Notes under the pieces: model-generated
What the model saw: only the letters and a program-made list of their open reading frames with translations
Told to the model about the DNA's origin: nothing
Databases searched by the model: none
Position numbers and translations under genes: made by a program
NCBI RefSeq assembly: GCF_048403405.1
Contig: NZ_CP183129.1
Source: Escherichia coli
GTDB lineage: Bacteria; Pseudomonadota; Gammaproteobacteria; Enterobacterales; Enterobacteriaceae
Direction: 5' to 3' (one strand)
Length of the DNA stretch: 64,000 bases
Shown: positions 10,544-13,906 of the stretch, piece after piece
How the letters are laid out: each line of letters begins with the position of its first letter
How positions within the stretch are numbered: the stretch's first letter is position 1

Positions 10544-11598
<1,055 letters not shown>

Positions 11599-11643: not shown

Positions 11644-11659
11644 AAGCAAACGTTTGCGA
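11644..11659. promoter_or_regulatory. PurR operator of purMN
   Basis: aAGCAAACGTTTGCGa palindrome (reverse complement TCGCAAACGTTTGCTT), about 65 bp upstream of the purM start. Matches the PurR box consensus. Confidence 0.6.
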
Positions 11660-11856
11660 GACTGCTTTACACAACCTTTTTGCACGTCTTTTCCCCAGGC
11701 GCGCGGCGAAAGAATACTTGTACCAGGGCAAAGGATCGTTTTCGGATGGAATAATCTTCTTCCATAACCATTTGAATACAAAATAACTTTATCTCAAACC
11801 GTTATCATTTTGACTAAAGTCAACGAAAATAATATTGCCGCCTTGAAGAAAGGAGG

Positions 11857-11878
11857 TATAATCCGTCGATTTTTTTTG
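11857..11878 (+). promoter_or_regulatory. upp promoter -10 (TATAAT) and initially transcribed GATTTTTTTTG tract (UTP-sensitive reiterative transcription)
   Basis: TATAAT at 11857-11862, then CCGTCG, then G-A-T8-G at 11868-11878, about 27 nt upstream of the upp ATG. Confidence 0.6.
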
Positions 11879-11904
11879 TGGCTGCCCCTCAAAGGAGAAA
11901 GAGT

Positions 11905-12531
11905 ATGAAGATCGTGGAAGTCAAACACCCACTCGTCAAACACAAGCTGGGACTGATGCGTGAGCAAGATATCAGCACCAAGCGCTTTCGCGAACTCGCT
12001 TCCGAAGTGGGTAGCCTGCTGACTTACGAAGCGACCGCCGACCTCGAAACGGAAAAAGTAACTATCGAAGGCTGGAACGGCCCGGTAGAAATCGACCAGA
12101 TCAAAGGTAAGAAAATTACCGTTGTGCCAATTCTGCGTGCGGGTCTGGGGATGATGGACGGTGTGTTGGAAAACGTTCCGAGCGCGCGCATCAGCGTCGT
12201 CGGTATGTACCGTAATGAAGAAACGCTGGAGCCGGTACCGTACTTCCAGAAACTGGTTTCTAACATCGATGAGCGTATGGCGCTGATCGTTGACCCAATG
12301 CTGGCAACCGGTGGTTCCGTTATCGCGACCATCGACCTGCTGAAAAAAGCGGGCTGCAGCAGCATCAAAGTTCTGGTGCTGGTCGCTGCGCCAGAAGGTA
12401 TCGCTGCGCTGGAAAAAGCGCACCCGGACGTCGAACTGTATACTGCATCGATTGACCAGGGACTGAACGAGCACGGATACATTATTCCGGGCCTCGGCGA
12501 TGCCGGTGACAAAATCTTTGGTACGAAATAA
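11905..12531 (+). CDS. upp: uracil phosphoribosyltransferase
   Basis: Track ORF 11878..12531 trimmed to the ATG at codon 10 ([16 protein letters not shown], 208 aa). RBS AAGGAG. Confidence 0.95.
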
Positions 12532-12549
12532 AGAATAAAAATAATTAAA

Positions 12550-12577
12550 GCCGACTTTAAGAGTCGGCTTTTTTTTG
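12550..12577 (+). terminator. intrinsic terminator/attenuator between upp and uraA
   Basis: GCCGACT-ttaag-AGTCGGC hairpin followed by T8. Confidence 0.6.
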
Positions 12578-12616: not shown

Positions 12617-13906
12617 ATGACGCGCCGTGCTATCGGGGTGAGTGAAAGACCGCCACTTTTACAGACAATCCCGCTTAGTTTGCAACATTTGTTCGCCATG
12701 TTTGGTGCAACCGTCCTGGTGCCCGTCTTATTTCATATTAACCCGGCGACTGTACTGTTATTTAACGGTATAGGAACGCTGCTGTATCTCTTCATCTGTA
12801 AAGGGAAAATCCCGGCTTATCTTGGTTCCAGCTTTGCCTTTATTTCACCGGTATTGTTACTGTTGCCGTTAGGGTATGAAGTCGCGCTGGGCGGCTTTAT
12901 TATGTGCGGCGTGCTGTTCTGCCTGGTTTCTTTTATCGTGAAGAAAGCGGGGACCGGCTGGCTGGACGTGCTGTTTCCACCTGCGGCAATGGGCGCAATC
13001 GTTGCCGTCATCGGTCTGGAGCTGGCGGGCGTAGCTGCCGGTATGGCAGGTTTACTCCCGGCTGAAGGGCAAACGCCAGACTCCAAAACCATCATCATCT
13101 CCATTACCACCCTGGCAGTCACGGTTTTAGGTTCCGTGCTGTTTCGTGGTTTCCTGGCAATTATCCCGATTTTAATTGGCGTGCTGGTGGGTTACGCGCT
13201 CTCTTTCGCAATGGGAATTGTCGATACCACGCCGATTATTAATGCTCACTGGTTTGCGCTGCCAACCCTCTATACGCCGCGCTTCGAGTGGTTTGCCATT
13301 CTGACTATTCTGCCAGCGGCGTTAGTGGTTATTGCCGAACACGTAGGGCACCTGGTGGTAACGGCTAATATCGTCAAAAAAGATCTGCTGCGCGATCCAG
13401 GTCTGCACCGTTCGATGTTTGCTAACGGCTTGTCGACCGTGATCTCCGGCTTCTTTGGCTCCACGCCAAACACCACCTACGGGGAAAACATTGGCGTGAT
13501 GGCGATCACCCGTGTTTACAGTACCTGGGTTATCGGCGGGGCGGCGATTTTCGCTATCCTGCTTTCCTGCGTCGGTAAACTGGCTGCTGCTATCCAGATG
13601 ATCCCATTGCCGGTGATGGGCGGCGTTTCGCTGCTGCTTTATGGTGTCATCGGTGCTTCCGGTATTCGTGTTTTGATCGAATCGAAAGTGGATTACAACA
13701 AAGCACAGAACCTGATCCTGACTTCCGTGATTTTGATCATCGGTGTCAGTGGCGCGAAGGTAAACATCGGCGCGGCGGAGCTGAAAGGTATGGCGCTGGC
13801 GACCATCGTCGGTATCGGCTTAAGTTTGATCTTCAAAATGATTAGTGTGCTGCGCCCTGAAGAAGTGGTGCTGGACGCAGAAGACGCGGATATAACAGAC
13901 AAATAA
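12617..13906 (+). CDS. uraA: uracil permease (NCS2 family)
   Basis: Track ORF 12575..13906 trimmed to the ATG at codon 15 ([20 protein letters not shown], 429 aa). Polytopic membrane protein. Confidence 0.95.

What the first reader, a model, noticed from the sequence alone, without database searches (positions are those of the whole stretch)
11857..11878. upp leader: -10 hexamer followed by GATTTTTTTTG (T8), the signature of UTP-sensitive reiterative transcription
A TATAAT hexamer is followed 6 nt later by G-A-T8-G immediately upstream of upp. This arrangement is known to let RNA polymerase slip on the T tract at high UTP and so couple upp-uraA expression to pyrimidine supply.
Basis: partly seen in the sequence, partly recalled or inferred. 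Interest (0 to 1): 0.3.

Follow-up and report, generated by a model that had tools for sequence, protein, structure and literature searches.

The report
Known UTP-sensing upp promoter
This is the well-studied E. coli upp-uraA promoter, where a run of eight T's just after the transcription start makes RNA polymerase stutter and abort when UTP is plentiful, so the finding is correct but already known.

Summary
TATAAT (11857-11862), a 5-nt spacer CCGTC, then G-A-T8-G (11868-11878) lie 37 nt upstream of the upp start codon (11905).

The window is E. coli chromosome (ppk-purN-purM / upp-uraA-hda). From the -35 hexamer to the ATG it is identical to K-12 MG1655, the strain in which this promoter was dissected. 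Published work (Tu & Turnbough 1997; Cheng, Dylla & Turnbough 2001) gives this same initially transcribed sequence, GATTTTTTTTG, as the basis of pyrimidine control of upp-uraA.

Control also needs UTP-sensitive choice between two adjacent starts, G6 and A7. Transcripts started at A7 stutter and are lost, and those started at G6 escape.

New supporting evidence here:
- All 80 Enterobacterales species loci examined keep TATAAT-N5-(G79/T1)-A-T7-9, while the flanks diverge.
- Aeromonas keeps the arrangement. Vibrio, Shewanella and Pasteurella do not.
- No riboswitch, leader hairpin or leader terminator offers an alternative mechanism.
- Among 5,424 E. coli complete genomes, 4,941 carry the T8 allele and 440 a T7 allele.
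- A conserved FNR site at 11810-11823 is also already published.

Verdict: already known, low interest.

The parts
11810..11823 (+). FNR binding site TTGACTAAAGTCAA (core TTGA-N6-TCAA). Its centre is at -51.5 relative to G6 and -52.5 relative to A7. It gives anaerobic activation of upp-uraA, a second and separate input into the same promoter.
   Evidence: Sequence. Myers et al. 2013 (PMC3688515) report an FNR ChIP-seq peak at upp/purM with the predicted motif TTGACTTTAGTCAA, which is the reverse complement, and list upp-uraA as FNR-activated. An exact TTGA-N6-TCAA starts 47-48 nt upstream of TATAAT in 41 of 80 Enterobacterales loci and 57 nt upstream in 2 more.
11835..11840 (+). -35 hexamer TTGCCG (4 of 6 consensus matches), 16-nt spacer to the -10
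   Evidence: Promoter scan, 10 of 12 matches overall. A weak -35 of the form xTGGCG / TTGCCG is conserved at this position.
11857..11862 (+). -10 hexamer TATAAT (perfect consensus)
   Evidence: Invariant in 80 of 80 species loci.
11863..11867 (+). G+C-rich 5-nt discriminator CCGTC between the -10 and the first start site
   Evidence: Always 5 nt and always CCGGC, CCCGC, CTCGC or CCGTC in the 80 loci.
11868..11868 (+). G6: the start site used at low UTP. Its transcripts largely escape stuttering and are elongated into upp-uraA.
   Evidence: The base is present and is G in 79 of 80 species. Its role comes from Tu & Turnbough 1997 as summarised in PMC12709180 and from my own knowledge of the abstract. 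The TSS was not measured here.
11869..11869 (+). A7: the start site favoured at high UTP. Its transcripts enter reiterative UMP addition and are released.
   Evidence: The base is present and is A in 80 of 80 species. Its role comes from the literature as for G6.
11870..11877 (+). T8 tract (A8 in the template strand), where the nascent AUUU... transcript slips back and UMP is added repeatedly
   Evidence: Tract length is T7 (25), T8 (46) or T9 (9) in 80 species. In E. coli, 4,941 genomes carry T8 and 440 carry T7 of 5,424. PMC7039003 gives the upp-uraA sequence as 5'-GATTTTTTTTG.
11878..11904 (+). Rest of the 5' untranslated leader, with Shine-Dalgarno AAGGAG at 11892-11897. Unstructured, with no attenuator.
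   Evidence: RNA fold of 11868-11925: -7.5 kcal/mol, z-score +0.96 against shuffles. No terminator-like site in the leader. No Rfam match in the leader.
11905..12531 (+). upp, uracil phosphoribosyltransferase (208 aa)
   Evidence: RefSeq annotation of an identical locus. ORF list. Homologues carry PF14681/PF00156.
12547..12576 (+). upp-uraA intercistronic hairpin followed by a T run (terminator-like, possibly partial)
   Evidence: Terminator scan: 11-pair stem at 12547-12571 followed by T's. T8 at 12569-12576. Only sub-threshold Rfam matches to terminator-containing families.
12617..13906 (+). uraA, uracil:H+ symporter, the second gene of the operon
   Evidence: RefSeq annotation. ORF list.

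Best explanation
This is the sigma-70 promoter of the E. coli upp-uraA (uracil salvage) operon. It senses UTP directly through RNA polymerase, with no regulatory protein and no RNA structure. Polymerase can start at either of two adjacent purines, G6 (11868) or A7 (11869). When UTP is high, starting at A7 is favoured. The short A-U-U-U transcript pairs only weakly with the A8 template tract, slips back one base and is extended by another U, over and over. This gives AUUUU(n) products that are released without ever reaching upp. When UTP is low, starting at G6 is favoured, and these transcripts mostly pass through the T tract normally and make full-length upp-uraA mRNA. The operon is therefore switched up only when pyrimidines are scarce. 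A separate FNR site one helical turn upstream of the -35 adds anaerobic activation. Shown here: the sequence, its identity to K-12, its conservation, and the absence of alternative leader elements. Taken from the literature: the start sites, the UTP dependence and the fate of the transcripts.
For: - The exact motif is at the stated coordinates and is unique in the window, within a 10-of-12 sigma-70 promoter.
- The locus is E. coli purM/upp-uraA. From -35 to the ATG it is identical to K-12 MG1655, the strain used in the original experiments.
- PMC7039003 quotes 'upp-uraA (5'-GATTTTTTTTG)' as a reiterative-transcription promoter whose stuttered RNA does not return to normal transcription.
- The titles of Tu & Turnbough 1997 and Cheng et al. 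2001 state the mechanism and the need for the long T-A tract.
- In comparative data, 80 of 80 Enterobacterales species keep TATAAT-N5-(G/T)-A-T7-9. Per-column information is near maximal from about -20 through the T tract, while the flanks are near zero.
- Xenorhabdus and Providencia keep the same TATAAT arrangement, and Aeromonas keeps it with TATGAT as the -10.
- G6 is G in 79 of 80 species, and the one G6-to-T allele sampled in E. coli (which also has T7) has an exact copy in only 1 of 5,424 genomes.
- There is no competing leader mechanism: no Rfam family, no stable fold and no leader terminator.
Against: - Nothing in the sequence argues against it.
- No transcription start site, UTP titration or expression measurement can be made with these tools. 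The functional steps therefore rest on published work, and the two primary papers could not be read here.
- My account of G6 versus A7 behaviour is partly from memory of their abstracts.
- Conservation shows constraint on the motif but does not by itself show which mechanism imposes it.
Confidence: 0.95

Rival explanations
1. Slippage alone, as the first reader described it (pyrBI type). There is a single start site, and high UTP simply drives stuttering on the T tract, with no role for a choice between G6 and A7.
For: pyrBI (AATTTG) is triggered directly by UTP without start-site switching (PMC12709180). The T tract is the most conspicuous conserved feature.
Against: PMC12709180 places upp with codBA in the start-site-switching class, and the title of Tu & Turnbough 1997 says the same. 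Both G6 and A7 are almost invariant across 80 species (G 79 of 80, A 80 of 80), as expected if both starts matter.
Confidence: 0.03
2. The U-rich 5' end of the leader is mainly a translational enhancer (a ribosomal protein S1 binding site) or an mRNA stability element, and transcription is not regulated by it.
For: The T tract lies in the 5' UTR, 27 nt upstream of the start codon and 14 nt upstream of the Shine-Dalgarno sequence. U-rich leaders can enhance translation (general knowledge).
Against: The tract is fixed relative to the -10 hexamer (always N5 + 2 nt) but not relative to the start codon. The distance from position 6 to the ATG varies from 34 to 172 nt, which points to a transcription-initiation role. 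Published work attributes regulation to transcription. This role could coexist as a minor side effect.
Confidence: 0.01
3. The T run is the tail of an intrinsic terminator, or part of a leader attenuator or riboswitch (for example a PyrR-like or pyrimidine-sensing RNA) controlling upp.
For: Runs of T follow terminator hairpins, and pyrBI combines reiterative transcription with an attenuator (general knowledge).
Against: The terminator scan finds no hairpin next to 11870-11877. The leader folds no better than shuffled sequence, z-score +0.96. No Rfam family matches the leader even at E-values up to 1.
Confidence: 0.01

Closest known systems
E. coli K-12 upp-uraA promoter (Tu & Turnbough 1997, J Bacteriol 179:6665; Cheng, Dylla & Turnbough 2001, J Bacteriol 183:221)
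   Same: It is the same locus and the same sequence. From the -35 hexamer through the ATG it is identical to MG1655, including GATTTTTTTTG (PMC7039003).
   Different: Nothing in the promoter differs. The window's strain differs from K-12 at 9 positions further upstream in the purM-upp spacer (11715-11830).
E. coli codBA promoter (Qi & Turnbough 1995)
   Same: It uses the same two-part logic: UTP-sensitive start-site switching plus non-productive reiterative transcription on a T tract (PMC12709180). It also controls pyrimidine salvage genes.
   Different: Its T tract is shorter (5'-ATTTTTTG as quoted in PMC7039003). It is a different locus and is not in this window.
E. coli pyrBI and carAB P1 promoters
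   Same: Both show UTP-dependent stuttering on a T run at the start of the transcript, which lowers productive initiation (PMC6245113; PMC7039003).
   Different: They have only three T's (AATTTG, GTTTGC). UTP acts directly, without start-site switching. pyrBI additionally has a leader attenuator, which upp lacks.
B. subtilis pyrG (CTP-sensitive reiterative transcription)
   Same: It senses a nucleotide pool through slippage at the start of the transcript.
   Different: Its slippage is productive: the poly-G extension is kept and acts as an antiterminator, and low CTP triggers it (PMC12709180; PMC7039003). At upp the stuttered RNA is discarded.

Membership tests
UTP-sensitive start-site switching plus non-productive reiterative transcription promoters (upp / codBA class) | A sigma-70 promoter with a recognisable -10 hexamer placed so that transcription starts at the beginning of the T tract | tested here: met
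   TATAAT at 11857-11862 and -35 TTGCCG with a 16-nt spacer, 10 of 12 matches. G and A are the 6th and 7th bases after the hexamer.
UTP-sensitive start-site switching plus non-productive reiterative transcription promoters (upp / codBA class) | An initially transcribed region of the form purine-A-T(n)-G with a long T tract (8 in upp; the long tract is required according to the title of Cheng et al. 2001) | tested here: met
   GATTTTTTTTG at 11868-11878, identical to the published sequence (PMC7039003). T7-T9 in 80 of 80 species.
UTP-sensitive start-site switching plus non-productive reiterative transcription promoters (upp / codBA class) | Two adjacent alternative start sites (G6 and A7) whose use shifts with UTP concentration | not testable with these tools
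   Both bases are present and conserved (G 79 of 80, A 80 of 80). Their use as start sites is known only from the literature.
UTP-sensitive start-site switching plus non-productive reiterative transcription promoters (upp / codBA class) | Production of AUUU(n) ladders at high UTP that are released and not elongated | not testable with these tools
   Reported for this exact sequence in K-12 (PMC7039003; PMC12709180). The promoter's sequence identity to K-12 was shown.
UTP-sensitive start-site switching plus non-productive reiterative transcription promoters (upp / codBA class) | The controlled genes belong to pyrimidine metabolism or salvage | tested here: met
   Downstream genes are upp (uracil phosphoribosyltransferase) and uraA (uracil permease). 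Homologues carry PF14681.
Leader attenuators / riboswitches (considered and rejected) | A conserved RNA structure or terminator between the start site and the coding region | tested here: not met
   No Rfam hit in 11868-11904 at E-values up to 1. Fold z-score +0.96. No terminator-like site.

The most novel reading that the evidence does not exclude
Natural alleles of this promoter may set different regulatory ranges.
- About 8% of complete E. coli genomes (440 of 5,424, including the type strain ATCC 11775) carry T7 instead of T8.
- Species across Enterobacterales are fixed at T7, T8 or T9.
- The E. albertii type strain and one E. coli O8:H8 strain have lost the G6 'escape' start (TATTTTTTT(T)G).

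If tract length and G6 tune basal and induced upp-uraA expression, these variants would be a natural series of alleles for how strongly uracil salvage responds to UTP. The G6-to-T strains would be predicted to express upp poorly or non-inducibly. In addition, the conserved FNR site sits at -51.5/-52.5, a spacing not typical of class I or class II activation, so how FNR activates here is not explained.
Probability: 0.3. Interest if true: 0.25.

Novelty: already known. Interest (0 to 1): 0.08.

Why it matters
It is a textbook case of gene control 'without a repressor', in which RNA polymerase itself reads the UTP pool through start-site choice and transcript slippage. Recognising it confirms that the first-stage reader can spot such signals from raw sequence, but it adds nothing new about E. 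coli. The modest additions here are:
- The arrangement is invariant across 80 Enterobacterales species and also occurs in Aeromonas.
- T-tract length is polymorphic (T7/T8) within E. coli.
- Rare natural variants lack the G6 start.

Tried and rejected
- I tried to read the two primary papers (PMC179593, PMC94869) and two Turnbough reviews (PMC2415746, PMC3078970). None is held. The mechanism is therefore cited through later open-access papers that summarise them and, where marked, from my own memory of the abstracts.
- Several other papers that mention upp gave only reference-list hits or false matches to 'upper'.
- The supplement of the 2025 NAR nascent-RNA paper, which might have given genome-wide 5'-end data for upp, is not held.
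- I considered the T run as a terminator tail and rejected it: there is no adjacent hairpin.
- I considered a leader riboswitch or attenuator and rejected it.
- I considered that the T7 alleles are homopolymer sequencing errors. This is unlikely for 440 genomes that share an otherwise exact 49-mer and include the type strain, but individual assemblies could still be wrong.
- A first attempt to map K-12 coordinates by exact string search failed because of SNPs. The intergenic comparison in the same call was unaffected.

Full report
**Observation.** Reading the window gives, on the + strand:
- TATAAT at 11857-11862
- CCGTC at 11863-11867
- G at 11868 and A at 11869
- eight T's at 11870-11877
- G at 11878

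The upp ATG follows at 11905, preceded by AAGGAG at 11892-11897.

The 22-nt pattern TATAAT-N5-GATTTTTTTTG occurs once in the 64 kb. With up to two mismatches allowed, 0.02 matches are expected from dinucleotide-preserving shuffles. A T8 run alone is not remarkable: 5 were observed and 5.75 expected.

A simple promoter scan pairs the TATAAT with TTGCCG at 11835-11840 through a 16-nt spacer, 10 of 12 consensus positions. Only the wording '6 nt later' needs tightening: the gap is 5 nt, so G is the 6th and A the 7th base after the hexamer.

**What the locus is.** The 401 bases around the site match 5,424 of 5,426 complete E. coli genomes, always once and always on the chromosome. RefSeq annotation of an identical copy gives ppk1, purN and purM on one strand and upp, uraA and hda on the other. 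In window coordinates:
- purM starts at 11580 on the - strand
- upp is 11905-12531
- uraA is 12617-13906

Compared with K-12 MG1655, the 324-nt purM-upp spacer has the same length and nine substitutions. All lie at or upstream of 11830, so everything from the -35 hexamer to the ATG is identical to K-12.

**What is known.** The primary papers are not in the held library, nor are the Turnbough reviews. Open-access papers that summarise them are explicit:
- Shin & Murakami 2020 (PMC7039003) list 'upp-uraA (5'-GATTTTTTTTG)' with pyrBI and codBA. They describe these as promoters that make long reiterative RNAs and, once stuttering begins, do not switch back to normal transcription.
[quoted passage not shown] It calls the process non-productive.

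From my own memory of those abstracts (not verified here):
- Initiation occurs at G6 and A7.
- High UTP favours A7, whose AUUUU(n) products are never extended into upp.
- Low UTP favours G6, whose transcripts largely avoid stuttering.
- Regulation fades gradually as the tract is shortened from 7 to 3 T's.

**Mechanism.** The best explanation is therefore the published one. RNA polymerase at this promoter reads the UTP pool twice. First it chooses between G6 and A7. Then, for A7 transcripts, it repeatedly slips the weak rU:dA hybrid on the A8 template tract. Productive upp-uraA mRNA is made mainly when UTP is low.

**Alternatives tested.**
- No intrinsic-terminator-like hairpin adjoins the T run or lies in the leader.
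- The leader RNA (11868-11925) folds at -7.5 kcal/mol, no better than shuffles, z-score +0.96.
- No Rfam family matches the leader even at E-values up to 1. The only weak, sub-threshold matches sit on the upp-uraA intercistronic hairpin.

An attenuator, a riboswitch or a terminator tail is therefore excluded as far as these tools can see.

**Comparative evidence (new here).** A scan of one genome per species with the Upp protein returned 80 loci across Enterobacterales. They include Escherichia, Citrobacter, Enterobacter, Klebsiella relatives, Yersinia, Serratia, Pantoea, Erwinia, Dickeya, Brenneria, Hafnia, Edwardsiella and Rahnella.

All 80 have TATAAT, exactly five G+C-rich bases (CCGGC 35, CCCGC 27, CTCGC 12, CCGTC 6), then a base that is G in 79 and T in one, then A in all 80, then T7 (25), T8 (46) or T9 (9).

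Anchored on the -10 hexamer, per-column information is near maximal from about 9 nt upstream of the hexamer through the T tract, and near zero in most of the upstream spacer.

The motif keeps its distance to the -10 hexamer, but its distance to the start codon varies from 34 to 172 nt. This fits a role in initiation rather than in translation.

Outside this set:
- Xenorhabdus and Providencia have TATAAT-N5-GA-T7.
- Aeromonas veronii has TATGAT-TCCGC-GA-T7-G.
- Vibrio harveyi has TATAAT followed by CTGAAGGTTTG, only three T's.
- A Shewanella and a Pasteurella locus show no such arrangement.

**Variation within E. coli (new here).**
- An exact 50-mer spanning the promoter (T8) is found in 4,941 of 5,424 genomes.
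- The same sequence with T7 is found as an exact 49-mer in 440, including the type strain ATCC 11775 (alignment).
- One O8:H8 strain combines T7 with G6-to-T.
- The E. albertii type strain also has T at position 6.

These variants fall within the T7-T9 range seen between species. I did not test whether they change regulation.

**Second input.** The palindrome TTGACTAAAGTCAA at 11810-11823 matches the FNR core TTGA-N6-TCAA. It is already published. Myers et al. 2013 (PMC3688515) report an FNR ChIP-seq peak at upp/purM with this motif and list upp-uraA as FNR-activated. An earlier microarray paper also labels the operon FNR-activated, citing EcoCyc.

What I add is conservation. An exact TTGA-N6-TCAA starts 47-48 nt upstream of TATAAT in 41 of the 80 species, often as the perfect consensus TTGATnnnnATCAA. 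Its centre is at -51.5/-52.5 relative to the published starts. From general knowledge, this is not a usual activating position for FNR or CRP, and I leave it as an open detail.

**Verdict.** The feature is already known, so interest is low.

Noticed in passing
window 11810-11823: FNR-type palindrome TTGACTAAAGTCAA upstream of the upp -35, centred at -51.5/-52.5, an unusual distance for activation. It is already reported as an FNR ChIP-seq site (Myers 2013). Here it is shown to be conserved at a fixed distance from the -10 in 41 of 80 Enterobacterales species, often as the perfect TTGATnnnnATCAA.
   Followed up: yes
E. coli complete genomes; examples L082 and L083 (T7), aligned to window 11786-11955: The T tract is polymorphic in E. 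coli. 4,941 genomes have the exact T8 50-mer and 440 have the exact T7 49-mer (including type strain ATCC 11775), out of 5,424. The regulatory consequence is untested.
   Followed up: partly
L084 (E. coli O8:H8 16F5M1D1) and L002 (E. albertii NBRC 107761), position equivalent to window 11868: The G6 start base is replaced by T (TATTTTTTTG and TATTTTTTTTG). On the published model this removes the start site that lets transcripts escape stuttering. The exact allele has a single copy among 5,424 E. coli genomes. It is unknown whether it is typical of E. albertii.
   Followed up: partly
window 11644-11659: Near-palindromic AAGCAAACGTTTGCGA upstream of purM on the opposite strand, which looks like the PurR operator of purMN (identification from general knowledge). 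The core GCAAACGTTTGCG is also present upstream of purM in the Vibrio harveyi and Xenorhabdus loci, and as AATCGTTTGCG in Aeromonas.
   Followed up: no
window 12547-12576: An 11-pair hairpin followed by a T8 run lies between upp and uraA. It is terminator-like on both strands and gives weak, sub-threshold Rfam matches to terminator-containing families (Trp_leader, STnc240). It may act as a partial terminator or an mRNA-stabilising element within the operon.
   Followed up: no
L086 (Vibrio harveyi), about 40-55 nt upstream of upp: The upp upstream region has TGTATAATCTGAAGGTTTG, a consensus -10 followed by a G-TTT-G resembling the carAB P1 / pyrBI short-tract stuttering sites. This raises the possibility of a weaker version of the same control in Vibrio.
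   Followed up: no
L044 (Serratia marcescens), L055 (Ca. Symbiopectobacterium), L070 (Brenneria roseae): In these three species the conserved TATAAT-N5-GA-T(n) promoter lies 91-172 nt from the upp ATG instead of about 37-40, so the leader carries extra G+C-rich sequence of unknown role.
   Followed up: no
80 species loci, positions -9 to -1 before TATAAT (window 11848-11856): The spacer just upstream of the -10 is strongly conserved as AAAAAGCGG in most Enterobacterales (E. coli has GAAAGGAGG). Together with the always G+C-rich 5-nt discriminator, this suggests constraint on open-complex properties beyond the hexamers.
   Followed up: no
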